Shown one piece after another: positions 952 to 44,235 of a stretch of 64,000 nt of DNA; positions within the stretch are counted from its first letter, which is position 1; each line of letters starts with the position of its first letter. The position numbers and the translations under genes were made by a program. The stretch lies in the sequence record NC_055721.1. The stretch is one strand, 5' to 3'. The notes beneath the pieces were generated by a model, which was not told where the DNA came from, searched no databases, and was given only the letters and a program-made list of their open reading frames with translations. The DNA comes from Escherichia phage EcS1.

Positions 952-1401
952 TTACATATCTACCAATTTGCCGTTTTTAACTCGCATAACTTTAGCGGCT
1001 AATTTATTAGTTGGATTTTTCTGACGGACAATAGATGCTAAGCTATTAGCTGCTGTTTTAGCTGCGGCATAATCGTCATACCAATCACGACCAGTTTTAA
1101 TACGCTTAGTTCCTTTGTCTACTGTAACAATCCATTGAGATTGATCATTAGGGTCCATTTCTATGCGAATATCACCACCTGATACTAAACCAGATTGGAC
1201 CTTAGTAGGTTTGTTAGGGACAGTACCACCTAATGCTTTCGCCGCCTTTACAGCATCTTCATAACTCAGCCCAGCTTCAATAGTTTCAGCCTTGCGTCCT
1301 TTGCCACGATTAACATTAAAGGTTGTACCCCATCCAGGAACAATTTCAATATCCATTTCATGTTTTGCCGCTTCAGCTATAAATTCTTGATAAGTTTTCA
1401 T
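952..1401 (-). CDS. internal head protein (IPII/IPIII-like) with capsid targeting sequence
   Basis: N-terminus MKTYQEFIAEA matches the T4 internal-protein capsid targeting sequence with a gp21 protease site after the Glu; basic 149-aa protein. Confidence 0.6.
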   Translation of the reverse strand: MKTYQEFIAEAAKHEMDIEIVPGWGTTFNVNRGKGRKAETIEAGLSYEDAVKAAKALGGTVPNKPTKVQSGLVSGGDIRIEMDPNDQSQWIVTVDKGTKRIKTGRDWYDDYAAAKTAANSLASIVRQKNPTNKLAAKVMRVKNGKLVDM

Positions 1402-1884: not shown

Positions 1885-2187
1885 CTACTTCTTAGAGTAA
1901 TCACTCATTAGTTTAACTATGTCACCAAGTTTCTTGTTGAACAGATAATCTACTTCTTTACCTGCTTTGTTAACAATCTGCCATTGGCCATCGCCTTTGT
2001 TACCGAAAGTGTAGTCGCCAACTTTAAATGAGTAGCCGCCTACTTTTTTAACAGGAGTTACTTCAAAGCCAAGTTTTTTAGCTTGGAAAGTTACACGACG
2101 CAGAGTGTCGTCCATTTCGCTTTCAGTTAGTGGTTGGGTATAAGTTTCAAGGTAAGATTCTAGTAAAGTCATTCGTATGCACCCCAA
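1885..2187 (-). CDS. hypothetical protein
   Basis: 100-aa ORF between denV and e; start uncertain (internal Met at MTLLESY). Confidence 0.4.
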
Positions 2188-6211: not shown

Positions 6212-6817
6212 TTATGCTTTCAGAGATTCGAGGTATTCAGCCAAGTCAGCGCTGGTAGACTCGACACCTGTTGCATTGCTGCCGTTGAATGTATCGATAC
6301 GAGAGATAATGGTATCAACATCAACTTTAGCGAGTTCAGCTGTTTCAATGATATCGTCTGCGGTAGAGAGACCCATTGAGTTGGCTGCATTACTTTCACG
6401 GATGAACTCAAGCTTAACAGCCAGGTCAGCACGTTGGTCATCAAGAGCAACTGTAGTACGTTCAATTTCTTCTTGCATTGCTACAAGTTCAGAAGCTTTA
6501 GTACGAAGAGCTGCTGCGGTACGACGATACAGAAGACCCAGTTTAGCGTGAGTGGTCACATCAACTGTAGGCTGAGTTTGCATCAGATGACGGATTTCAC
6601 GTTCTTTAGAAGCTGCATTTTGGTCTTTTTCATCAGCCAGAGCTTTCAAACGTGAGATTTCTTTCTTAGAAGTCGCATAACGTTTACGCAACTGATTGAT
6701 TTTATCGATGATTTTGTTCGCTGCTTCAGCATACTGTTGTTCGATTGTAGTGTGCTTAGTCATGAAGAAAGACAGCTGAGAACGAATGAATTCAACGATT
6801 TTTTTCAGAATAGACAT
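6212..6817 (-). CDS. coiled-coil protein, PspA/IM30-like (tentative)
   Basis: 201 aa; N-terminal amphipathic helix followed by long charged heptad-like stretches (RLKALADEKDQNAASKEREIRHL..., ELVAMQEEIERTTVALDDQRADLAVKLEF...) resembling the PspA/Vipp1 family. Confidence 0.45.
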   Translation of the reverse strand: MSILKKIVEFIRSQLSFFMTKHTTIEQQYAEAANKIIDKINQLRKRYATSKKEISRLKALADEKDQNAASKEREIRHLMQTQPTVDVTTHAKLGLLYRRTAAALRTKASELVAMQEEIERTTVALDDQRADLAVKLEFIRESNAANSMGLSTADDIIETAELAKVDVDTIISRIDTFNGSNATGVESTSADLAEYLESLKA

Positions 6818-6874
6818 AATATTTCCTTTCAGTTTAAAGTAGATGTATTTTAATACTCAATAATATAAGCAAAC

Positions 6875-7099
6875 TTAGATTGTAGAACCAATCACAACTT
6901 TAGCGAAAGACCAATTTTTGTTAACATGCTTAACAATATCAGCCATTTTAACAGCTTCAAACAAATCAGTAACATGATACTCATGAGTTTCGGTATTCAG
7001 TATTGCACGGAAGTTTTCAAAACAGCCAAAGTCATCAGTGATTTCATCGATTGTTACTGTATTGAAAGTAGTCATTTTATTTCTCCAGGTTTCCATCAT
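6875..7099 (-). CDS. hypothetical protein
   Basis: 74-aa ORF. Confidence 0.4.
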   Translation of the reverse strand: MMETWRNKMTTFNTVTIDEITDDFGCFENFRAILNTETHEYHVTDLFEAVKMADIVKHVNKNWSFAKVVIGSTI

Positions 7100-7160
7100 T
7101 TGTTTCGATGGAGCTATAATAACATGCCCTCAGGAGAAGTAAACAGCTTTGTTTAAAGAC

Positions 7161-7196
7161 CCGAAAGGGACCGCTAGGGTCCCTTCTTTTATTTAC
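7161..7196 (-). terminator. intrinsic terminator candidate after internal-protein gene
   Basis: Hairpin GGGACC-CTAGC-GGTCCC followed on the minus strand by TTTCGGGTCTTT, immediately 3' of the 7189..7794 stop. Confidence 0.45.
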
Positions 7197-7794
7197 GTGA
7201 TTTTTCGTAACGAGCAGCGTCAGCAGCCAGAGTACCAGCGTTGCGAAGCTTATTGCTGATTTCTTTATGCAGAGGCTGAGTATAACGCAAACTTTCAATT
7301 GTTAGATACAGATTGTAAAGGTCTGGAGTTTCAAGGTTGTTCATGTGTTGATTATTACGCAGCTTAGCATATTCACGAACCAGAACGTTAGTTTCACTTT
7401 CAATCTCATTAATCAGTGAAGATAATTGCTTATACTTTTTAACTAATGAAGAAGTATCAAAGTTAAACTTAGGTCCTGCAACTGGTTTAGGAGCTGGCTT
7501 TGCGGCCGCAGGCTTAGGAGCCACAACTGGTTTAGCAACAGGAGCAGACTTAGGTGCTGGAGTTGCTTTTGGAGTTGCTTTAGCAGTACCGCCACCAGCT
7601 ACGATATCTTTAAACGCTTTAGATGCTTTATAATAGTCTTTTTGACTATCAGTACTAAAGCCATACATGTCTTTCACTGCTTTAAAGAACTCTGTAGTGG
7701 TTTTAGTTCCTTTAATCGAATCATAAGCAGCTTGCCACTTGTCTTTAGTCATACGCTCAGTAGCTTCTGAGATGAATTCTTTGAATTTTAACAT
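7189..7794 (-). CDS. internal head protein-like, capsid targeting sequence plus Ala/Pro/Lys-rich region
   Basis: N-terminus MLKFKEFISEA resembles the internal-protein targeting sequence; central low-complexity tract KATPKATPAPKSAPVAKPVVAPKPAAAKPAPKPVAGPK. Confidence 0.55.
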   Translation of the reverse strand: MLKFKEFISEATERMTKDKWQAAYDSIKGTKTTTEFFKAVKDMYGFSTDSQKDYYKASKAFKDIVAGGGTAKATPKATPAPKSAPVAKPVVAPKPAAAKPAPKPVAGPKFNFDTSSLVKKYKQLSSLINEIESETNVLVREYAKLRNNQHMNNLETPDLYNLYLTIESLRYTQPLHKEISNKLRNAGTLAADAARYEKSRK

Positions 7795-8119
7795 TTTTGG
7801 TTCCTTTGAATATGAATTAGGTTTATTTTATATTTATCATATTCGTCCAGTGCGCACCGCTTGCTCAGATAGCCCGAAAGGGTCCCACCGAAGTAGAACC
7901 CTTTCAGAAGAATTGACAGCACTACCCACTTGCGGATAGCCTGCAAATGTTCATTTTATTATGCTCGTAGAGGCAAGTCTCACATAATAAAACATAGCGT
8001 CAGGAGGTGTCACTTTGCAGGTGATTAACAACTATGCTCATCCTCGGATAGAACATAGCAACGTAAACGTTCTCTTCTAGACTGACGTCTTATCGTAGGG
8101 TTGCAGCCCTAAACGAAAT

Positions 8120-8196
8120 TGGTGCTGAATGCAGGAATCGAACCCGCGACCTTCTCATTACAAGTGAGCTGCTCTACCTACTGAGCTAATTCAGCA
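8120..8196 (-). tRNA. tRNA-Thr (anticodon TGT)
   Basis: Cloverleaf read by hand; sequence closely resembles T4 tRNA-Thr; CCA encoded. Confidence 0.75.
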
Positions 8197-8199
8197 ATT

Positions 8200-8284
8200 T
8201 GGTGCATCGAGAGGGATTCGAACCCTCAATCCTCGCGGCGTGGCATTTTAAGTGCCATGTGTATACCAGTTCCACCATCGATGC
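8200..8284 (-). tRNA. tRNA-Leu (anticodon TAA)
   Basis: 85-nt class II tRNA with long variable arm; anticodon loop CTTAAAA; CCA encoded. Confidence 0.7.
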
Positions 8285-8288
8285 GAAT

Positions 8289-8363
8289 TGGTCGAGACAG
8301 TAGGGATCGAACCTACGACCTAGGACTTAGAAGGTCCTTGCTCTTCCGTCTGAGCTATGCCCC
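8289..8363 (-). tRNA. tRNA-Arg (anticodon TCT)
   Basis: Anticodon arm GGAC-CTTCTAA-GTCC, T-loop TTCGATC, CCA encoded. Confidence 0.7.
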
Positions 8364-8525
8364 GTCTTTGTATAAACGTTCTAAGTAAACATGCTCCATC
8401 GGTTTAACGATTTCGCCTTGTTTCAATAATTGTGTTTGAATAGGATTCAAATTATAAAATTTGATCACATCTCTGAGATCTTGTTCGCTATAATTAAAAG
8501 TTCCTACTTCTACTCCGATTTGCAT
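8355..8525 (-). CDS. hypothetical small protein (56 aa)
   Basis: Small ORF between tRNA genes, not in the supplied track (below its length cut-off); stop overlaps the tRNA-Arg 5' end. Confidence 0.25.
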   Translation of the reverse strand: MQIGVEVGTFNYSEQDLRDVIKFYNLNPIQTQLLKQGEIVKPMEHVYLERLYKDGA

Positions 8526-8537
8526 AAGTATCCTTTT

Positions 8538-8624
8538 TGGAGCTAGGAGTGAGATTCGAACTCACGAAAGCATAACGCTACTGGATTTGCAATCCAGCGC
8601 CTTTGACCACTCGGCAATCCTAGC
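8538..8624 (-). tRNA. class II-type tRNA with anticodon GCA (Cys) and U73 discriminator
   Basis: 87 nt; acceptor GCTAGGA/TCCTAGC, Ser/Tyr-like D-arm GCCGAGTGGTCAAAGGC, anticodon stem CTGGA/TCCAG with loop TTGCAAA, 15-nt variable arm, T-loop TTCGAAT. Confidence 0.5.
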
Positions 8625-8626
8625 AA

Positions 8627-8754
8627 ATGTTCAGGTGGGAGTCGAACCCACACGATTGAAGCCTCTCATCGGGTTACCTCTTACTCAGCTGGGTGCTTAA
8701 ACCAGCGTTTCAAACAGAGTCCGCCAACATGTCTACCGATTCCATCACTGAACA
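8627..8754 (-). ncRNA. tRNA-like stable RNA candidate (about 128 nt)
   Basis: Perfect 7-bp acceptor-like pairing (TGTTCAG/CTGAACA) next to a canonical T-arm (GTGGG-TTCGACT-CCCAC) and a Leu-like D region (GGAATCGGTAGAC), but too long for a tRNA and without a clean anticodon arm. Confidence 0.35.
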
Positions 8755-8758
8755 ATTT

Positions 8759-8983
8759 TTACATATCTACTTGACAAAACCAGTTCATTTCAAAATATTC
8801 ATCAAAATGTAATGCAGGTTCTACTTGACAATTTTCTTCTAATAAGACCAAATTTCTTCTAACAATAGGGTCTAATGACGTGATGGTCAAAGCACTATCA
8901 TGATAGTAAATCAGAACACGAAGCGAATCTGTATCAACTAAATACCGAACATTCATATCAGGATGTTTGTAGAGGTTAATCAT
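8759..8983 (-). CDS. hypothetical protein
   Basis: 74-aa ORF upstream of the tRNA block. Confidence 0.4.
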   Translation of the reverse strand: MINLYKHPDMNVRYLVDTDSLRVLIYYHDSALTITSLDPIVRRNLVLLEENCQVEPALHFDEYFEMNWFCQVDM

Positions 8984-8989
8984 AACATT

Positions 8990-9436
8990 TTATCCTTGAA
9001 GCATTTCACGAACACGATAAAGATTAGAACAGAATTCTTGTTCAGTTAGAACAGTTTCATTCTTTTTATTCTTACCCATGCTATGAGTTAATGTTGAGTT
9101 ACGCGTAGCTAGGAGTGCTCTCTTGAATCCTTCATTCAAAGCCAGAGAATCATATGCTCGCTGAATTAAAGACGTATAGGCTATACTTTGACGTAAAATA
9201 GGGACACCTTTCCAGTACAACGTTTGGGTGCGCCACCAGTTCTTTTTCTTACCTTTGAACTTAGCTTTCTTACCAACTAATGTACAGACATGCTCTTGCA
9301 TTTCTACTGAAGAAAACTTCAATGATTGCAAGAAACCTTCCATTGATGCACACTGTACTCCATCAATTTCGAAAGCATGAGGAGCAAAGTTACTTAATGC
9401 ACAACTTGGGTACATTGAACCTGAACCAATATCCAT
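8990..9436 (-). CDS. NADAR-domain protein (YbiA/DUF1768-like)
   Basis: LSNFAPHAFEIDGVQCASMEGFLQSLKF and FKRALLATRNSTLTHS match conserved NADAR blocks (compare E. coli YbiA FSNFAAWPIKVDGKTWPTSEHYFQAQKF and LRALLLATAPAKLVEHT). Confidence 0.65.
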   Translation of the reverse strand: MDIGSGSMYPSCALSNFAPHAFEIDGVQCASMEGFLQSLKFSSVEMQEHVCTLVGKKAKFKGKKKNWWRTQTLYWKGVPILRQSIAYTSLIQRAYDSLALNEGFKRALLATRNSTLTHSMGKNKKNETVLTEQEFCSNLYRVREMLQG

Positions 9437-9527
9437 TATCCATTATTCCTTTGATGATAATAACAGCGTTTACATCGATACCAACCGAAATAATCTTTGT
9501 AGATTATTCTATTGCAGTTGGGACATT

Positions 9528-9782
9528 TCATGCTGGTTCTACCTCAGTCATTGTTGTCCGTTTCAGAACCACACAACCTTCTATTTCAGGGTCTTTCTTA
9601 ACCAGAACTCGTCCAGTAGGCGAAATAAGGCCAGTAATATGATTCAGAGCTTTAGCAGCATCATTGAAGCCATCAGCTTGCATAATCGTTCCGAATGAGA
9701 ACCCTTGATAGTGATTACTAAACTCGTAATAAGCGTATTCTTCACGAATAGGGCAATAAATCACATAATCAACATTCAGCAT
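9528..9782 (-). CDS. hypothetical protein
   Basis: 84-aa ORF. Confidence 0.4.
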   Translation of the reverse strand: MLNVDYVIYCPIREEYAYYEFSNHYQGFSFGTIMQADGFNDAAKALNHITGLISPTGRVLVKKDPEIEGCVVLKRTTMTEVEPA

Positions 9783-10114
9783 AAGTCACCTACACATTGG
9801 AGAGCACGATGGTGTGACCATATTTCTAAAGTCTTTTCGTTGGCTTTATTAATTCGACGAAGGTCATTTAAATTACCTTTAACATATAACCCAAGTTCAC
9901 TTAACAAATGATCGATAGTGAAATAAGAAATATCTCGCAGTGGAGCATAACGGAACTTAATGAAGTGCCATTCATCAAACTCGTTTTTGGTAAACGCATA
10001 ATCAGCATGCATCATGAGTTCGCGAATCGTTTCACGCATCAAAAAGACATTACCGTGATAAGAATCATTTATAGCAACAATATGTGGACCTACACCTAGA
10101 TAGATACGAGACAT
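9776..10114 (-). CDS. hypothetical protein
   Basis: 112-aa ORF preceded by RBS GAGGAAA. Confidence 0.45.
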   Translation of the reverse strand: MSRIYLGVGPHIVAINDSYHGNVFLMRETIRELMMHADYAFTKNEFDEWHFIKFRYAPLRDISYFTIDHLLSELGLYVKGNLNDLRRINKANEKTLEIWSHHRALQCVGDLC

Positions 10115-10133
10115 AATATTTTCCTCAGTCAGT

Positions 10134-10304
10134 TTATTCTACATCATATTCAACTACAAGCACTTCTTCATAATCTTCAGGATTAAGAGTTTTAATGTAG
10201 TCTTCTGCTTTTTCTTTACTCGATAGAATCTTTAATGGCTTTGAATATTCATCATATCCATATTCACAGTTAAACTCTGACATAACAACTGCGTATACTA
10301 TCAT
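10134..10304 (-). CDS. hypothetical small acidic protein (56 aa)
   Basis: ORF below the track cut-off; the same RBS (GAGGAAAATATT-ATG) as the downstream gene. Confidence 0.35.
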   Translation of the reverse strand: MIVYAVVMSEFNCEYGYDEYSKPLKILSSKEKAEDYIKTLNPEDYEEVLVVEYDVE

Positions 10305-10324
10305 AATATTTTCCTCATTTGAAT

Positions 10325-10401
10325 TGGTGGCCCTTGTCGGAGTCTAACCGACCTTACACCAGTTATGAGCTGGGCACTTTCACACGAAAGTATAAAGGGC
10401 C
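10325..10401 (-). tRNA. tRNA-Met-like (anticodon CAT), non-canonical D and T loops
   Basis: 77 nt with perfect acceptor stem and CCA, anticodon loop CTCATAA; D-loop lacks GG and T-loop is TTAGACT. Confidence 0.4.
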
Positions 10402-10458
10402 ATTATTAAAATATTTTTACTTTAATAATGGCCCTCTCCGAAGAGAGGACAGAGGGTA

Positions 10459-10743
10459 TTACTTACACATGAACTTAGCAACTTCATCGAAGCTGTTCAA
10501 GATGTAATAAGACTTAGGCGCACTGTATTCAGTAGGTTTAATAGTAATACGTACACGACCATGCAAGTCTTCAACTAATCCAACAACAGCACTTGAACGA
10601 ACAACAGCACGAGCAGTTGTAGGAATCTGACCGGTAGTCAGAGCTTGAAGTTCGGTGTCAATAAGGATTACAATACGTTCAGACATTTTAATTTCCATTT
10701 GTTGTTTCGATGTAGTAATAATAACATGATTATTTTGAAGCAT
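10459..10743 (-). CDS. hypothetical protein
   Basis: 94-aa ORF; start uncertain (internal Met candidates). Confidence 0.4.
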   Translation of the reverse strand: MLQNNHVIITTSKQQMEIKMSERIVILIDTELQALTTGQIPTTARAVVRSSAVVGLVEDLHGRVRITIKPTEYSAPKSYYILNSFDEVAKFMCK

Positions 10744-10801
10744 AACCGTTCAGAGACTAAAAAGCCCAGTACAAGATTTCTCTTGCCCGGGCGTCATTAT
10801 T

Positions 10802-10876
10802 TGGAGCAGCATATCGGACTCGAACCGATGTCGACTGGGTGGAAGCCAGTAATATTAACCACTATACGAATGCTGC
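10802..10876 (-). tRNA. tRNA-Gly (anticodon TCC)
   Basis: Acceptor GCAGCAT/ATGCTGC, anticodon arm ACTGG-CTTCCAC-CCAGT, T-loop TTCGAGT, CCA encoded. Confidence 0.7.
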
Positions 10877-10877
10877 A

Positions 10878-10951
10878 TGGCAGGCCCTGTAGGAATCGAA
10901 CCCACGTCGCTGAGGTTGGAGCTCAGAATGATACCACTATACCAAGGACCC
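10878..10951 (-). tRNA. tRNA-Trp (anticodon CCA)
   Basis: Anticodon arm CTGAG-CTCCAAC-CTCAG, T-loop TTCGATT, CCA encoded. Confidence 0.65.
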
Positions 10952-11102
10952 GTTGATTGTACGGAACGCCTGGATTCGAACCAGGTTACAAAGCAGTTGA
11001 CGCTCCTTTGTATTTTGTAAGGCCATCATCTCGACCATATCCGAACGTTTCGTCAAAAACGCTACTCGGCTTATGGCAAAGACAAATCCTCGAACCGATA
11101 AT

Positions 11103-11177
11103 TGGTGGGAGCTGTTGGTAACGATCCAACCTCTCGAGCTCTTCAGGCAAGCGCTAATCCGTCTCAGCTAAACTCCC
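11103..11177 (-). tRNA. tRNA-Phe-like (anticodon GAA), weakened anticodon stem
   Basis: 75 nt, acceptor GGGAGTT/AGCTCCC plus ACCA; anticodon loop CTGAAGA; two mismatches in the anticodon stem and an atypical T-loop. Confidence 0.4.
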
Positions 11178-11262
11178 AGATCCACAAGAACTTTACAAGC
11201 ATTGCGCTTAACCTTTTCAGGAAGTTAGGGTACTATTTCTAGTCTGTGGTTATCCCTATTTT

Positions 11263-11338
11263 TGGTGGGAATAGCTGGATTTGAACCAGCGACCTATCGC
11301 TTATCGGGCGAGTGCTCTACCAACTGAGCTATATTCCC
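11263..11338 (-). tRNA. tRNA-Ile (anticodon GAT)
   Basis: Acceptor GGGAATA/TATTCCC, D-arm GCTC-AGTTGGTA-GAGC, anticodon loop CCGATAA (C33), T-loop TTCAAAT, CCA encoded. Confidence 0.6.
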
Positions 11339-11344
11339 ATAATT

Positions 11345-11421
11345 TGGTCTCCATATAAGGATTTGAACCTTAGACCTCCTGGCCCCAAACCAGGCGCTCT
11401 ACCAAACTGAGCTACACGGAG
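11345..11421 (-). tRNA. tRNA-Pro (anticodon TGG)
   Basis: Anticodon arm CCTGG-TTTGGGG-CCAGG, T-loop TTCAAAT, CCA encoded. Confidence 0.7.
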
Positions 11422-11422
11422 A

Positions 11423-11668
11423 TTAATTTATATCAAATATGGTGCCATCTTTCCACATCATTGCGAAAAGAGGTGAAACTTTTGTTAAACGGTGTGCAAC
11501 TTTAACTTGACGGCTAAAACCTTCAATTTGAGCACCATAACCATTTATATCTAATACAAGACCAATATGAACTTTGCCAATATCAGACATACCATTTGAA
11601 GGTAATCCAATCATGACATAATCGTTAACTTCGATTTGTTTACCATATTTGTCAAATAATATCTTCAT
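11423..11668 (-). CDS. hypothetical protein
   Basis: 81-aa ORF embedded in the tRNA cluster. Confidence 0.4.
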   Translation of the reverse strand: MKILFDKYGKQIEVNDYVMIGLPSNGMSDIGKVHIGLVLDINGYGAQIEGFSRQVKVAHRLTKVSPLFAMMWKDGTIFDIN

Positions 11669-11693
11669 AATTATTTATTCACCATATTTTAAT

Positions 11694-11787
11694 TGGAGGA
11701 AGCTGTGAGATTTGAACTCACGGAACCTGTCCCCAGGACCTCTAGTTTTCAAGACTAGTGCAATAAACCAGACTCTGCCAAGCTTCC
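11694..11787 (-). tRNA. tRNA-Ser (anticodon TGA)
   Basis: 94-nt class II tRNA; anticodon arm CTAGT-CTTGAAA-ACTAG, long variable arm, T-loop TTCAAAT, CCA encoded. Confidence 0.7.
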
Positions 11788-11791
11788 GAAT

Positions 11792-11867
11792 TGGGGTGAC
11801 CTGTGGAATTCGAATCCACGACTACGAGAATCACAATCTCGAGTTCTACCAACTGAACTAAGGCCAC
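11792..11867 (-). tRNA. tRNA-His (anticodon GTG)
   Basis: Anticodon arm CGAGA-TTGTGAT-TCTCG, T-loop TTCGAAT, CCA encoded. Confidence 0.7.
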
Positions 11868-11967
11868 ATCAATATTCACTCAGCCACTTCGTGCGGACCT
11901 GTCTCGATATTACGTGTAGTGGATTAGCTAGTTCACACCACTATATCGTCTAGAATGAATATTAATT

Positions 11968-12043
11968 TGGCTAGAGCGCTTGGATTCGAACCAAGGAATA
12001 CCAGAATCAAAATCTGGTGTCGTAACCGCTTGACTACGCTCTA
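11968..12043 (-). tRNA. tRNA-Gln (anticodon TTG)
   Basis: Perfect acceptor TAGAGCG/CGCTCTA, anticodon arm CCAGA-TTTTGAT-TCTGG, T-loop TTCGAAT, CCA encoded. Confidence 0.7.
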
Positions 12044-12045
12044 AT

Positions 12046-12121
12046 TGGAGGCGAGTGATGGAATCGAACCATCGCGTAAAGGGATATGAACCCTTTATTC
12101 TACCACTGAAGTTAACTCGCT
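12046..12121 (-). tRNA. tRNA-Met (anticodon CAT), initiator-like features
   Basis: Anticodon loop TTCATAT closed by three consecutive G-C pairs (GGG/CCC); 1-72 position is an A-C mismatch; T-loop TTCGATT; CCA encoded. Confidence 0.55.
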
Positions 12122-12248
12122 ATTGTCCGGGTTCTCGAAGTAAAAACAAGTAGCTTGATGTAGAACACATAAAGTGGGAACAACTCACTTCATCTCCTAG
12201 CATTATTGTATGGAGACTCAAACTCATCTTCAAGAACTGCTTCGTATT

Positions 12249-12325
12249 TGGCGGACGTGCTTGGACTCGAACCAAGGACCTATCGCTTAACAGGCGACCG
12301 CTCTAACCAACTGAGCTACACATCC
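12249..12325 (-). tRNA. tRNA-Asn (anticodon GTT)
   Basis: Anticodon loop CTGTTAA, T-loop TTCGAGT, CCA encoded. Confidence 0.7.
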
Positions 12326-12329
12326 AAAA

Positions 12330-12461
12330 TTTACTTTCAGGGTTACTCGAAGCTCTCAAACCTTCCGGAAAGTCGAATAAGCATCTCATCCTCTCAGAAT
12401 CCCGTGCACAGGAAAAATCTTTATTAGGAGGAGACTAAATCAATATAACCCTGAAAGTAAA
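12330..12461. repeat. perfect 16-bp inverted repeat flanking a 100-nt spacer
   Basis: TTTACTTTCAGGGTTA (12330-12345) and its exact reverse complement TAACCCTGAAAGTAAA (12446-12461); the spacer contains the palindrome TTCCGGAA. Confidence 0.6.
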
Positions 12462-12475
12462 CTTACTTTCGAATT

Positions 12476-12552
12476 TGGTGGGACATCATGGACTCGAACC
12501 ATGGACACCCGGATTAAAAGTCCGGTGCTCTAACCAACTGAGCTAATATCCC
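12476..12552 (-). tRNA. tRNA-Lys (anticodon TTT)
   Basis: Anticodon arm CCGGA-CTTTTAA-TCCGG, T-loop TTCGAGT, CCA encoded. Confidence 0.7.
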
Positions 12553-13060
12553 ATAGATATTTATCTATAAATCTCTTAGCTTGAGTATGACTTATATTTA
12601 AACTTTTACTAAACTTGGTTAATGCACCTCGTTTAGTAAAATCTATTAAATTATAAGCTTCAATTCTAGAAGCAATTTCTTCTTCAGACAAAACCAAAGC
12701 ATGGTTTTCTGAAATCTTTTTACGAGATTCTGTTGTATGTGACATACCAGTAAAACCAAGAGTAGGTTTTAGTCTACCATTAGCTTTAGCGTCTTGTGCA
12801 TTTTGTTTATTTGTCGCACAATAAATGTTTTCTAATGAATAAGGACCTATATCGCCTTTACGACACATGCAATAATCCAAACTTGCTTTACCACGTAAAT
12901 GATATTTACCTGTTGATTTCCACCAAGTAAACCACTCATCAAAAGTTAGATTAAATTCAATACCACGAGCTTTGGCATGAACTTTTTGCATACGGTACTT
13001 TTCATAATCTTCCATACAACTCTCACAAATTGGCAGTGCCGACGGGATTCGAACCCGCAT
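12530..13060 (-). CDS. putative HNH-type homing endonuclease with NUMOD-like and HTH-like C-terminal motifs
   Basis: CxxC plus Cys/His-rich N-terminal region (CESC...DYCMCRKGDIGPYSLENIYCATNKQN), NUMOD3-like GFTGMSHTTESRKKISENH, C-terminal HTH-like segment; both ORF ends overlap tRNA genes, so the true start is probably the internal Met at about 13015. Confidence 0.45.
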   Translation of the reverse strand: MRVRIPSALPICESCMEDYEKYRMQKVHAKARGIEFNLTFDEWFTWWKSTGKYHLRGKASLDYCMCRKGDIGPYSLENIYCATNKQNAQDAKANGRLKPTLGFTGMSHTTESRKKISENHALVLSEEEIASRIEAYNLIDFTKRGALTKFSKSLNISHTQAKRFIDKYLWDISSVG

Positions 13061-13105
13061 GGTCTCCCGTGACAGGGGAGTATATTACCAAGTCTACCAC
13101 GGCAC
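13030..13105 (-). tRNA. tRNA-Asp (anticodon GTC)
   Basis: Perfect acceptor AGTGCCG/CGGCACT, anticodon arm CTCCC-CTGTCAC-GGGAG, T-loop TTCGAAT, CCA encoded. Confidence 0.7.
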
Positions 13106-13111
13106 TATTGT

Positions 13112-13187
13112 TTGGTACTCTGTAGGAGAATTGAACTCCTCTTCCCAGGTTGAAAACCTGGTGTCCTAACCGATAGACGAACAGAGC
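13112..13187 (-). tRNA. tRNA-Glu (anticodon TTC)
   Basis: Anticodon arm CCAGG-TTTTCAA-CCTGG, T-loop TTCAATT, CCA encoded. Confidence 0.65.
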
Positions 13188-13195
13188 TAAGAATT

Positions 13196-13284
13196 TGGTG
13201 CACCGAGAAGGACTCGAACCTACGAAGCTCATTACAAGCAGGAGATTTACAGTCTCCACCCTTTGCCACTCGGGTCATCGATGC
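13196..13284 (-). tRNA. tRNA-Tyr (anticodon GTA)
   Basis: 89-nt class II tRNA; D region CCCGAGTGGCAAAGGG and anticodon arm GGAGA-CTGTAAA-TCTCC resemble E. coli tRNA-Tyr; CCA encoded. Confidence 0.65.
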
Positions 13285-13394
13285 ATTGAAGACGTTATAT
13301 TTTATTTATATCATCGAAATGATATCGTCTTCGGCATGACTTGCTTCATTAGCAAGTCCATGTATTAATAATAACACTTAAAACTTAAAGCATA

Positions 13395-13628
13395 TTACAA
13401 ATCGCCACTTCCAACAACAGTGAATGAAGAATCAACAATTTGGTATTCACCACCACAACTGTAGCCTGATTCATTCTGTTTGGCTTCTACGGTCTTCATA
13501 GCTTCTTCAAGAGAATCGTATTCACCTTCAAGGTCGTTCAGCCCACCACGTGGGTAATAATTGTCCCACAAAAATAATTTATACATCTTCACGTTTCCAA
13601 GACATATGAATAACAAACAGACCAACAA
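13395..13628 (-). CDS. hypothetical protein
   Basis: 77-aa ORF; real start probably the internal Met (MYKLFLWDNYYPRGG...). Confidence 0.3.
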   Translation of the reverse strand: MLVCLLFICLGNVKMYKLFLWDNYYPRGGLNDLEGEYDSLEEAMKTVEAKQNESGYSCGGEYQIVDSSFTVVGSGDL

Positions 13629-13839
13629 GTAAAGCTAACATAAAACTACCAATATTTACTAAAGTAGCACCAGCAGCCATACCCATCATAGCGTAGTCCC
13701 ACTTGCCAAGTTCATCTTTAACTTCGTAGTTCTTTTTGAACCAAGTTTTAGCTTTCAAGAACAGTTCATTAACTTTTTGCATTTGCATTTGCAATTTTAT
13801 CCATAATGAATGATACAATACCAGATGCAAATGATGCAC
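13579..13839 (-). CDS. hypothetical small membrane protein
   Basis: ORF with one C-terminal transmembrane helix (MMGMAAGATLVNIGSFMLALLVGLFVI); start probably an internal Met. Confidence 0.35.
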   Translation of the reverse strand: MHHLHLVLYHSLWIKLQMQMQKVNELFLKAKTWFKKNYEVKDELGKWDYAMMGMAAGATLVNIGSFMLALLVGLFVIHMSWKREDV

Positions 13840-14020
13840 CTAGCACAATGATTGTTTCTTTAGTATCGATAACTCCAAGACTTCCAGCGAAGATTGCAGT
13901 ACCGACAGCTCCTAATGTTACTACACTTGCAATGTTACGAATCAGTTCACAACGTTTCATTTTACATCTCCATTTAGTTTGTAGGAGTACTATACCATGT
14001 TCAAATGGAGATGTAAACAC
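13769..14020 (-). CDS. hypothetical small membrane protein
   Basis: ORF with hydrophobic segments (VVTLGAVGTAIFAGSLGVI...); start probably at MKRCELIRN. Confidence 0.35.
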   Translation of the reverse strand: MFTSPFEHGIVLLQTKWRCKMKRCELIRNIASVVTLGAVGTAIFAGSLGVIDTKETIIVLGASFASGIVSFIMDKIANANAKS

Positions 14021-14021
14021 C

Positions 14022-14933
<912 letters not shown>

Positions 14934-43165: not shown

Positions 43166-43591
43166 ATGTTAATGCTCCCTGAAGACCACGAATTAGTAAT
43201 CGATAATGTCGAAGCTCTGATTCCTGAAGCACAGGGTCGCCTTGACATCTTGTCGAAAGCACTTGATAAAGCCGATATAAATAAAATTGTAGAGAACATG
43301 CTGAGTGATAATACCGATTTGGCTATTGCACTTGGTTCTCTCAATGAAGATATGCAATTAAATGAATTCATTGTTAAACATGTTTCTAGTCGTGGAGAAA
43401 TTACTCGTACTAAAGACCGTAAAACACGTGAACGTAATGCTTATCAGACAACTGGCTTATCTAAAGCAGCTCGTCGTCAAATTGCTCGCAAGGCGACCAA
43501 AACAAAACGCGCTAATCCGTCTATCACCACGCGTGCCCAACGTAAAAAGAAAAAAGCGATGGCCAAGCGTAAAGCATTTGGACTAAGCTAA
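43166..43591 (+). CDS. 68: prohead core protein gp68
   Basis: 141 aa (T4 gp68 141), basic C-terminus. Confidence 0.7.
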
Positions 43592-44235
43592 TGAATGAAC
43601 CCCAATTACTAATTGAAAATTGGGGTCAACCAGGCGAAGTGATTAATGGTATTCCGATGCTTGAATCTCACGATGGTTCAGATTCTGGTTTAAAACCAGG
43701 TCTTTATATCGAAGGTGTATTCATGCAAGCTGAAGTTGTTAACCGTAATAAACGTCTTTACCCAAAAACAATTTTGGAAAAAGCTGTTTCTAATTACATT
43801 AAAGAACAAGTTCAGACTAAACAAGCTTTAGGAGAATTAAACCATCCACCTCGTGCTAACGTTGACCCTATGCAAGCTGCCATCATCATTGAAGAAATGT
43901 GGTGGAAAGGCAATGATGTATACGGACGTGCACGTATTATCGAAGGTGACCACGGTCCTGGTGATAAATTAGCTGCAAACATCCGTGCAGGCTGGATTCC
44001 TGGTGTGTCCAGTCGCGGCCTAGGAGCTTTGAAAGCTTCAGGTAAAGGTTATAACATCGTTCAGGAAGGTTTTCGCCTGACGGTTGGTGTGGACGCTGTA
44101 TGGGGACCTAGTGCTCCTGATGCGTGGGTCCAGCCGAAACAAATTTCTGAAAGTACAGAAGAAAAGGCGCAAGTCGCCAATACAAGTGCTGATGATGCTT
44201 TTAATGCACTAGCCGAGCGCTTAAAAGCGTTATAA
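43591..44235 (+). CDS. 21: prohead core scaffold and protease gp21
   Basis: 214 aa (T4 gp21 212) in the conserved position. Confidence 0.88.
   Translation: MNEPQLLIENWGQPGEVINGIPMLESHDGSDSGLKPGLYIEGVFMQAEVVNRNKRLYPKTILEKAVSNYIKEQVQTKQALGELNHPPRANVDPMQAAIIIEEMWWKGNDVYGRARIIEGDHGPGDKLAANIRAGWIPGVSSRGLGALKASGKGYNIVQEGFRLTVGVDAVWGPSAPDAWVQPKQISESTEEKAQVANTSADDAFNALAERLKAL

What the first reader, a model, noticed from the sequence alone, without database searches (positions are those of the whole stretch)
7189..7794. Internal-protein-like gene with capsid targeting sequence and an Ala/Pro/Lys-rich low-complexity core
The N-terminus MLKFKEFISEA matches the T4 capsid targeting sequence that is cleaved by the gp21 protease and directs proteins into the head for injection with the DNA. 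The body contains a 45-residue AP/K-rich tract (KATPKATPAPKSAPVAKPVVAPKPAAAKPAPKPVAGPK), unlike T4 IPI to IPIII. Injected internal proteins are a known reservoir of anti-restriction functions (IPI* against GmrSD), so a divergent member is a candidate early-acting anti-defence or DNA-binding protein.
Basis: partly seen in the sequence, partly recalled or inferred. Interest (0 to 1): 0.6.

Follow-up and report, generated by a model that had tools for sequence, protein, structure and literature searches.

The report
Candidate injected head protein of phage EcS1
This is a real gene of a T4-like phage whose first ten residues match the signal T4 uses to load small proteins into its head for injection, so it is probably a new, unannotated member of the known "internal protein" class, but packaging has not been shown.

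Summary
The ORF is real: window 7189..7794, minus strand, 201 aa. The window is Escherichia phage EcS1. The N-terminus MLKFKEFISE|A keeps the four positions of the T4 capsid targeting sequence (CTS) that matter: 4 and 7 for targeting, 8 and 10 for processing. All 21 family sequences tabulated keep the [LIV]xE cleavage motif, and nearly all keep the whole CTS pattern, with varied codons. EcS1 encodes the prohead protease gp21 (82% identical to T4, catalytic H85/S140 kept). A late-promoter-like GATAAATA lies 36 nt upstream.

The protein has a small helical N-domain, a disordered cationic Ala/Pro/Lys linker of about 42 residues, and a conserved helical C-domain. Neither domain matches a known family or fold. 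Similarity to T4 IPIII stops after about 25 residues.

The locus is polymorphic. Related phages keep the promoter and CTS codons but carry other gene bodies, and one allele is frameshifted. This copies the known behaviour of T-even ip loci, but at a third position.

Against packaging, a published virion proteome of a phage with a distant family member shows no peptide from it.

Verdict: probable new member of the Ip class. The anti-defence and DNA-binding roles are untested.

The parts
7189..7794 (-). Coding sequence, 201 aa plus TAA stop. Precursor 22.4 kDa. Identical to EcS1 KNT65_gp149. Member of phrog_2280 (unknown function).
7765..7794 (-). Codons 1-10, MLKFKEFISE: the CTS-like leader. 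Predicted gp21 cleavage after Glu10 (ISE|A), leaving a 191-aa product of 21.2 kDa, pI 9.75, net charge +14.
   Evidence: The roles of positions 4, 7, 8 and 10 are taken from PMC9026906. The I/LxE specificity is taken from PMC12991175.
7594..7764 (-). N-domain, aa 11-67. Predicted helices at 17-26, 33-44 and 51-66. It begins with the conserved RMTKDKW motif, which resembles GINKDEW of T4 IPIII.
7468..7593 (-). Ala/Pro/Lys-rich linker, aa 68-109. Predicted disordered (pLDDT below 50), no acidic residue, net +8. Length and sequence vary among homologues, but the composition and a net positive charge are kept.
7558..7581 (-). Perfect 12-nt tandem duplication inside the linker, encoding KATPKATP.
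7192..7467 (-). C-domain, aa 110-201. This is the most conserved part (FDTS...LVRE..LRN.Q..NNL.TPDLY.LYL..E.L.YTQP). Predicted helices at 115-146, 157-170 and 173-199, pLDDT 78-93.
7802..7806 (-). Shine-Dalgarno AAGGA, conserved in homologues.
7831..7838 (-). GATAAATA, 7 of 8 matches to the T4 late promoter TATAAATA, 36 nt before the ATG. NATAAATA lies 14-41 nt before many late genes of this window. JS98 has the exact TATAAATA and Marfa has CATAAATA.
7880..7901 (-). Upstream hairpin GGGTTCTAC-TTCG-GTGGGACCC followed by TTT. It separates the gene from the tRNA and small-RNA region.
   Evidence: the base pairing was read from the sequence
7165..7185 (-). Hairpin just after the stop codon (AAGGGACC-CTAGC-GGTCCCTT). 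A similar one follows the Kosakonia 305 allele. The next gene has its own sigma-70-like promoter at 7143..7116.
43591..44226 (+). Prohead protease gp21, the enzyme predicted to process the protein. It is 82% identical to T4 gp21, with H85 and S140 conserved. The cleavage sites of gp23 (FLSE|AEIGG) and gp24 (LLRE|S) are conserved too.

Best explanation
The gene encodes an internal head protein of the T4 Ip class.

**Proposed sequence of events (inferred, not shown)**
1. It is transcribed late, from its own late promoter.
2. The ten-residue leader docks the 22.4-kDa precursor onto the scaffolding core of the assembling prohead.
3. The protease gp21 cuts after Glu10 (ISE|A).
4. This frees a basic 191-aa protein that stays in the head with the DNA. 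The extended lysine-rich linker is likely to lie along the DNA phosphates.
5. The protein leaves the head with the DNA at infection. [quoted passage not shown] The only functions known for this class are those of T4 Ip1-3, which each inhibit one type IV (GmrSD) restriction enzyme. The most likely role is therefore to neutralise a host defence at the moment of DNA entry.

**What is shown:** the sequence features, their conservation, the protease gene, the promoter-like site and the locus polymorphism.

**What is inferred:** packaging, cleavage, ejection and the target.
For: **The leader**
- MLKFKEFISE|A compares with T4 IPII/III MKTYQEFIAE|A and IPI MKTFKEF.... Positions 4, 7, 8 and 10 are kept.
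- All 21 family sequences tabulated carry an [LIV]xE site at residue 9-17. Nineteen have it at residue 9-10, and most have a second site at 14-17. The further alleles translated later (Virsaitis27, UTI-K1, VMC04) start the same way.
- Codons vary while residues hold. Position 8 (I/L) uses 8 different codons, and position 4 uses TTC, TTT, TAC and TAT.
- The pattern is found 3 times in the window against 0.05 expected.

**The processing machinery**
- gp21 is 82% identical to T4 with its catalytic residues intact, and the gp23 and gp24 cleavage sites are conserved.
- In T4 the CTS alone is sufficient to package foreign proteins (PMC9026906).

**Expression**
- GATAAATA lies 36 nt upstream, in the same layout as for lysozyme e, gp22 and gp24 in this window.
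- An ATAAATA core is present upstream in all six homologues aligned.

**Properties of the product**
- The mature protein (21.2 kDa, pI 9.75) is close to T4 IPIII* (20.4 kDa, pI 9.65).
- Only lysines of the internal proteins contact DNA in T4 heads (PMC3012670).

**Behaviour of the locus**
- Kosakonia 305 and CIP9 are near-identical (mostly identical columns) in the flanks and through the promoter and CTS codons. Identity collapses within the gene body and resumes just after the stop.
- Other alleles exist in Virsaitis27, UTI-K1 and OR088902. The X20 allele is frameshifted.
- T4 Ip1-3 are GmrSD inhibitors that share only their leader (PMC12373910).
Against: - There is no direct evidence of virion presence for any family member.
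- LC-MS/MS of CsCl-purified ValerieMcCarty03/04 virions detected 135-153 proteins. These include the IPII-like protein (66 PSM) and Alt (189 PSM). I found no peptide of the family member WKM80661.1 in the held text.
- That allele has another C-domain and a leader one residue shorter, and the supplementary files were truncated when stored. Even so, the genome-ordered sheet goes from WKM80658 directly to WKM80662.
- T4 ipI-III have no late-promoter motif within 80 nt upstream, so the promoter is not a class feature.
- The gene is not at either of the two T-even Ip loci.
- The C-domain is highly conserved across phages of several host genera. That is less expected for an arms-race inhibitor.
- No fold or sequence match suggests any activity.
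Confidence: 0.58

Rival explanations
1. It is a prohead-core or DNA-condensation accessory. It is targeted and trimmed as above, but it works inside the phage. It would help the scaffold, or neutralise DNA charge through the cationic linker as a histone-like protein, and would have no target in the host.
For: - T4 IPIII mutants assemble heads more slowly (PMC9026906).
- The mature protein matches IPIII* in size and charge.
- The linker is net positive in every member.
- The C-domain is a generic helical hairpin or bundle, like oligomerisation domains, and is conserved rather than fast-evolving.
Against: - The gene is absent, replaced or frameshifted in close relatives. Whole domains are exchanged. 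Both are odd for a part of the assembly machinery.
- The linker's net charge drops to +2 in some members.
- T4 Ip3 now has a host target.
Confidence: 0.2
2. It is not packaged. It would be a late cytoplasmic protein whose 5' end was inherited by recombination with ip genes, so that the leader is vestigial or serves some other purpose.
For: - No peptides were found in the ValerieMcCarty virion proteome for the family member there. The ipI-locus CTS protein WKM80674 was also not convincingly detected.
- Ip genes recombine at their 5' ends.
Against: - The leader is kept at the protein level with varied codons across deeply diverged alleles, and is better conserved than the adjacent domains.
- In T4 the CTS alone is sufficient for packaging.
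- A second cleavage motif is also maintained in most members.
Confidence: 0.17
3. It is a chance ORF or a mis-called gene.
For: None beyond the low-complexity core.
Against: - Full-length homologues occur in 142 phage records.
- The protein matches phrog_2280 with E 3e-53.
- It has a Shine-Dalgarno site, a promoter-like site and a confident predicted fold for both domains.
Confidence: 0.01

Closest known systems
T4 internal protein III (Ip3, IPIII; Pfam PF26861)
   Same: - A ten-residue leader ending in I-x-E|A.
- Mature size and basicity: 183 aa and pI 9.65, against 191 aa and pI 9.75.
- Profile similarity over the first 25 or so residues, including x-K-D-x-W (hhalign E 8e-5, probability 61%).
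- Dispensable.
   Different: - No similarity beyond residue 25 or so, and no PF26861 hit.
- A different locus.
- Two helical domains joined by an Ala/Pro/Lys linker.
- It co-occurs with a true IPIII homologue in fHe-Yen9-01, so it is not a replacement.
T4 internal protein I (Ip1, IPI*), the GmrSD inhibitor
   Same: - The leader MKTFKEF.
- IPI has a long 19-residue propeptide, and most homologues here also have a second cleavage site at residue 14-17.
- A small basic product.
   Different: - IPI* is a 76-residue compact alpha/beta protein (PMC3012670). This protein is all-helical, with two domains and 191 residues.
- It belongs to a different PHROG (4363 against 2280).
- It lies at another locus.
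Polymorphic ip genes of T-even phages (Repoila et al. 1994, as cited in PMC12373910 and PMC3012670)
   Same: Unrelated gene bodies sit behind a shared leader and are exchanged as cassettes at a fixed position, as seen here between Kosakonia 305 and CIP9.
   Different: - The described loci are the ipI locus and the ipII/ipIII locus of Tequatrovirus.
- This one lies between the tRNA cluster and the e.8-e.6 block. It is found in Kagamiyamavirus, Winklervirus, Dhakavirus, Kanagawavirus, Jiaodavirus, Marfavirus and several other T4-like phages whose genus I did not check.
- The alleles share more than the leader, namely an N-domain and a linker.
- I could not read the 1994 paper.
Ala/Pro/Lys-rich spacers: TonB proline-rich region, E2 acetyltransferase linkers, and the histone H1 / AlgP-type KPAA tails (the last from my own knowledge)
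   Same: The composition. There are weak composition-driven hits to TonB (E 0.005, 16.8 bits) and to a PDH E2 linker (E 0.59).
   Different: The scores are far below the family cut-offs (TonB cut-off 315 bits). There is no homology, so the resemblance says only that the tract is extended and flexible.

Membership tests
T4-type internal proteins (Ip class) | N-terminal capsid targeting sequence (M-K-T-Y/F-x-E-F-I/L-x-E) | tested here: met
   MLKFKEFISE. Positions 4, 7, 8 and 10 are kept. The cleavage motif is present in all 21 tabulated members and nearly all keep the full pattern.
T4-type internal proteins (Ip class) | I/LxE cleavage motif for the prohead protease at the end of the leader, with the protease encoded by the same phage | tested here: met
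   ISE|A. gp21 lies at 43591..44226 and is 82% identical to T4, with H85 and S140 kept. The gp23 and gp24 sites are conserved. Actual cleavage was not tested.
T4-type internal proteins (Ip class) | Present in purified virions in processed form | tested here: inconclusive
   There are no data for EcS1. The published ValerieMcCarty03/04 virion LC-MS/MS shows no peptide of the distant member WKM80661.1 in the held, truncated files.
T4-type internal proteins (Ip class) | Ejected into the host with the DNA | not testable with these tools
   This needs an experiment.
T4-type internal proteins (Ip class) | Small, basic, dispensable, and encoded at a polymorphic locus | tested here: met
   pI 9.75. 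Alleles are exchanged, absent or frameshifted among relatives.
T4-type internal proteins (Ip class) | Encoded at one of the two T-even Ip loci (next to denV/e, or next to 57B) | tested here: not met
   It lies between tRNA-Thr and the e.6-like gene. T4 has no gene there. This is a matter of position, not of mechanism.
IPIII family (PF26861) | Sequence homology over the mature protein | tested here: not met
   There is no Pfam hit at E up to 1. hhalign aligns only columns 1-26.
IPI and IPII families (phrog_4363, phrog_7857) | Sequence homology | tested here: not met
   The protein falls in phrog_2280 only.
GmrSD (type IV restriction) inhibitors | Blocks a cognate GmrSD enzyme | not testable with these tools
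   This is inferred only from T4 Ip1-3 (PMC12373910).
TonB / H1-like proline-lysine repeat proteins | Family-level profile match | tested here: not met
   TonB scores 16.8 bits against a cut-off of 315.

The most novel reading that the evidence does not exclude
This locus may hold a modular family of injected effectors. A conserved delivery module (leader, small N-domain and cationic extended tether) would carry interchangeable C-terminal effector domains. At least three unrelated types are seen. They would be swapped by recombination at the leader codons, rather as in polymorphic toxins. It would be a third Ip locus, serving the T4-like genera that lack T4's own Ip1-3 repertoire. Each C-domain would disarm a different host defence at DNA entry.
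Probability: 0.25. Interest if true: 0.65.

Novelty: new member of a known kind. Interest (0 to 1): 0.4.

Why it matters
In 2025 all three T4 internal proteins were shown to be specific inhibitors of type IV restriction enzymes (PMC12373910). Every uncharacterised leader-bearing protein is therefore a candidate counter-defence factor.

This family is labelled only "hypothetical protein" or "unknown function" in every listed record among the 142 and 100 phage genomes that hold it. Many of those phages are therapeutic candidates against E. coli, Klebsiella and Enterobacter. In some records the start codon is mis-called, which hides the leader.

If the protein is packaged, three things follow:
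- It adds a third ip locus.
- It shows that such proteins can have two domains.
- It offers a natural, longer delivery module for loading cargo into T4-type heads.

If it is not packaged, a good leader is not sufficient outside T4. That would also be useful to know.

Tried and rejected
**Searches for a function that found nothing**
- Pfam, NCBIfam and PDB-sequence profile searches gave only composition-driven hits to the linker (DEC-1, TonB, PDH E2), all far below the cut-offs.
- Foldseek against the PDB found nothing with E below 0.8.
- Foldseek against BFVD found only family members.
- I reject any specific fold assignment, including an HTH reading of the N-domain.

**Searches for relatives**
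- An exhaustive profile search of 1.84 billion representatives found only 13 clusters, all phage proteins of this kind. There are no cellular relatives and no T4 homologue.
- The alternative C-domains (P0024, P0026, P0022) have no Pfam or PHROG annotation either.

**The IPIII idea**
- I considered that this might be a diverged IPIII and rejected it. The similarity ends at about residue 25, and both proteins co-occur in fHe-Yen9-01.

**Regulatory features**
- There is no exact TATAAATA upstream. The 7-of-8 variant was accepted only after I saw the same variants before known late genes.
- T4 ip genes lack the motif within 80 nt upstream.
- An internal gp21 site (INE130) is not conserved in the family.

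**Literature that could not be reached**
- The JS98 virion proteome paper (PMC2168658), Repoila 1994 (PMC395341) and the Bair and Rifat papers are not held.
- The papers on LC53 and Pet-CM3-4 contain no proteomics.

**Other**
- Rfam finds nothing but tRNAs in 6800..14500.
- EcS1 itself does not appear as a full-length match in the phage collection, so I could not check its DNA-modification genes.

Full report
**1. What is there**

The window is from a T4-like phage. The ORF at 7189..7794 on the minus strand encodes 201 aa beginning MLKFKEFISEATERM. The protein is identical to hypothetical protein KNT65_gp149 of Escherichia phage EcS1. EcS1 is placed in the genus Kagamiyamavirus (PMC10132071). 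The nearest DNA relatives in the phage collection are Winklervirus phages of Erwinia and Serratia.

The gene lies just downstream, in the direction of transcription, of the first block of the tRNA cluster, which includes tRNA-Thr at 8120..8195. It lies upstream of an e.6-like gene at 6212..6817. T4 has no gene at this position: there, only non-coding DNA separates e.8 from rnaC, rnaD and the tRNAs. JS98, Marfa, Kosakonia 305, CIP9, UTI-K1 and ValerieMcCarty04 all carry a related gene at the same place.

**2. The leader**

T4 IPII and IPIII begin MKTYQEFIAE|A, and IPI begins MKTFKEFTSTTTPVSTITE|A. In T4 the first ten residues of IPIII suffice for packaging. Positions 4 and 7 matter most for targeting, and positions 8 and 10 for processing (PMC9026906). 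gp21 cuts after Glu in I/LxE motifs (PMC12991175).

EcS1 has F4, F7, I8 and E10, followed by Ala. A strict pattern for these features matches 3 of 1226 candidate starts in the six frames of the window, against 0.05 expected. The other two matches are:
- a 149-aa ORF next to denV (MKTYQEFIAEA);
- a 70-aa ORF at the ipI position ([11 protein letters not shown]).

All 21 family sequences tabulated have an [LIV]xE site at residue 9-17. Nineteen have it at residue 9-10, and most have a second site at 14-17, for example MKTYNEFLNE|SVLSE|AG in the JS98 type. The alleles translated later start in the same way.

The conservation is at the protein level. Position 8 (I or L) is written with eight different codons, and position 4 with TTC, TTT, TAC and TAT.

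**3. The processing enzyme and the timing**

The window encodes gp21 at 43591..44226. It is 82% identical to T4 gp21, with catalytic H85 and S140 in place. The known cleavage sites of gp23 (FLSE|AEIGG) and gp24 (LLRE|S) are conserved.

GATAAATA lies 36 nt before the ATG. In this window NATAAATA lies 14-41 nt before many ORFs, including gp22, gp24 and lysozyme e. JS98 has the exact TATAAATA, and Marfa has CATAAATA.

A UUCG-loop hairpin lies upstream and another hairpin follows the stop codon. The next gene has its own sigma-70-like promoter. The gene therefore looks like a self-contained late unit inside an early region. T4 ipI-III lack the late motif within 80 nt upstream, so this supports the timing but is not a class feature.

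**4. The protein**

The AlphaFold model (13 sequences, mean pLDDT 73) shows four parts:
- a disordered leader;
- a small helical N-domain (helices 17-26, 33-44 and 51-66);
- a disordered stretch at 68-103;
- a helical C-domain (helices 115-146, 157-170 and 173-199, pLDDT 78-93).

The linker G68-K109 is 74% Ala, Pro or Lys, has no acidic residue and carries net charge +8. It contains a perfect 12-nt duplication that encodes KATPKATP. Among homologues the linker varies in length and sequence, but it stays Ala/Pro/Lys-rich and net positive, from +2 to +11.

The mature protein would be 191 aa, 21.2 kDa, pI 9.75. T4 IPIII* is 183 aa, 20.4 kDa, pI 9.65.

The C-domain carries the strongest conservation, with a near-invariant NNL-TPDLY-LYL motif.

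**5. Relation to known Ips**

Profile-profile comparison with an IPIII alignment aligns only the first 25-26 columns. These are the leader plus an x-K-D-x-W motif (E 8e-5, probability 61%). There is no PF26861 hit. fHe-Yen9-01 has both an IPIII homologue and a member of this family. The protein is therefore not IPIII, IPI or IPII. It shares only the delivery end with them.

**6. The locus behaves like an ip locus**

Kosakonia 305 and CIP9 belong to the same genus. They are near-identical (mostly identical columns) in the flanks and through the promoter, Shine-Dalgarno site and leader codons. Identity collapses within the gene body and resumes just after the stop codon. At the protein level the two share the leader, N-domain and linker but have different C-domains.

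Other combinations exist:
- a third C-domain in OR088902 (P0026);
- a different N-domain with a related C-domain (KTPDLY) in P0027, P0028 and Virsaitis27.

In X20 the allele is split by a frameshift. In Virsaitis27 and X20 the annotated starts hide the leader. This is the pattern reported for T-even ip genes: unrelated bodies behind a common leader, at hotspots (PMC3012670; PMC12373910).

**7. Function**

T4 Ip1, Ip2 and Ip3 each inhibit one GmrSD-type restriction enzyme, and they share only the leader (PMC12373910). JS98- and RB69-type phages encode gene 42 and so make hydroxymethyl-dCMP for their DNA (PMC2993671).

By class analogy, a counter-defence role at DNA entry is the best guess for the C-domain. 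The cationic linker could also lie on DNA, since only lysines of internal proteins touch DNA phosphates in T4 heads (PMC3012670). None of this is tested. The high conservation of the C-domain across phages of several host genera fits a conserved target better than a rapidly diversifying one.

**8. Evidence against**

The one virion proteome I could reach for a phage carrying a family member is that of ValerieMcCarty03/04 (Jiaodavirus; PMC13119998). The member there is WKM80661.1, which begins MKFKDFLTEEELFEAAPGRMTKSKW and has the CIP9-type C-domain.

The held supplementary tables contain no peptide from it. The genome-ordered sheet passes from WKM80658 to WKM80662. In the same data the IPII-like protein has 66 spectra and Alt has 189. 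The ipI-locus leader protein of that phage, WKM80674, is also not convincingly detected.

There are caveats. The files were truncated when stored, the allele differs from the EcS1 type, and its leader is one residue shorter. Even so, this lowers my confidence that the family is an abundant head component.

**9. Verdict**

The reading as an Ip-class protein is well supported by sequence and comparative evidence, but it is unproven. The functional claims remain hypotheses.

It is a new, unannotated member of a known kind, with two unusual traits: a third locus, and a two-domain, tethered architecture with exchangeable modules.

Noticed in passing
window 952..1401 (-): A 149-aa ORF next to denV starts with the exact T4 leader MKTYQEFIAEA. 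Its body matches no PHROG beyond the first 20-40 residues, so it is another orphan candidate internal protein.
   Followed up: partly
window 14022..14234 (-): A 70-aa ORF at the ipI position, just past the tRNA cluster, starts [11 protein letters not shown]. It belongs to phrog_23867, of unknown function. It is a likely small internal protein that is not annotated as one.
   Followed up: partly
window 1885..2187 (-): An ORF between lysozyme e and denV matches phrog_8765 'internal virion protein' (E 2e-44). Its N-terminus, [19 protein letters not shown], is not the canonical leader, although it contains L-x-E motifs.
   Followed up: no
window 7840..8119 (-): About 280 nt of non-coding DNA lie between tRNA-Thr and the gene. 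The 5' part resembles the start of T4 rnaD, and a sigma-70-like promoter lies at 8013..7984. A TATCTGAGCAAGCGGTGCGC motif is shared with Kosakonia 305 and CIP9, where a second, diverged copy follows it. Rfam has no match. It may be a T4 rnaC/rnaD-like stable RNA.
   Followed up: partly
window 11106..11177 (-): Rfam calls an 18th tRNA here (36 bits) that ARAGORN did not report.
   Followed up: no
window 7158..7170 and 7871..7884 (-): Both hairpins that flank the gene are followed by the same CCCTTTCGGG string. They may be paired boundary elements of the cassette.
   Followed up: no
L013 1798..2361 (Virsaitis27 ORF145); L012 1686..2250 (X20): The annotated starts hide the leader. In Virsaitis27 the CTS begins at an internal Met (MKFKEFLSE). 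In X20 the gene is split by a frameshift into a 68-aa piece and a 124-aa piece.
   Followed up: yes
window 6212..6817 (-): The e.6-like neighbour (phrog_1203, unknown function) is labelled 'host specificity protein' in Kc304 and ValerieMcCarty04. I saw no evidence for that label. In the ValerieMcCarty virion data it has only spurious peptide matches.
   Followed up: no
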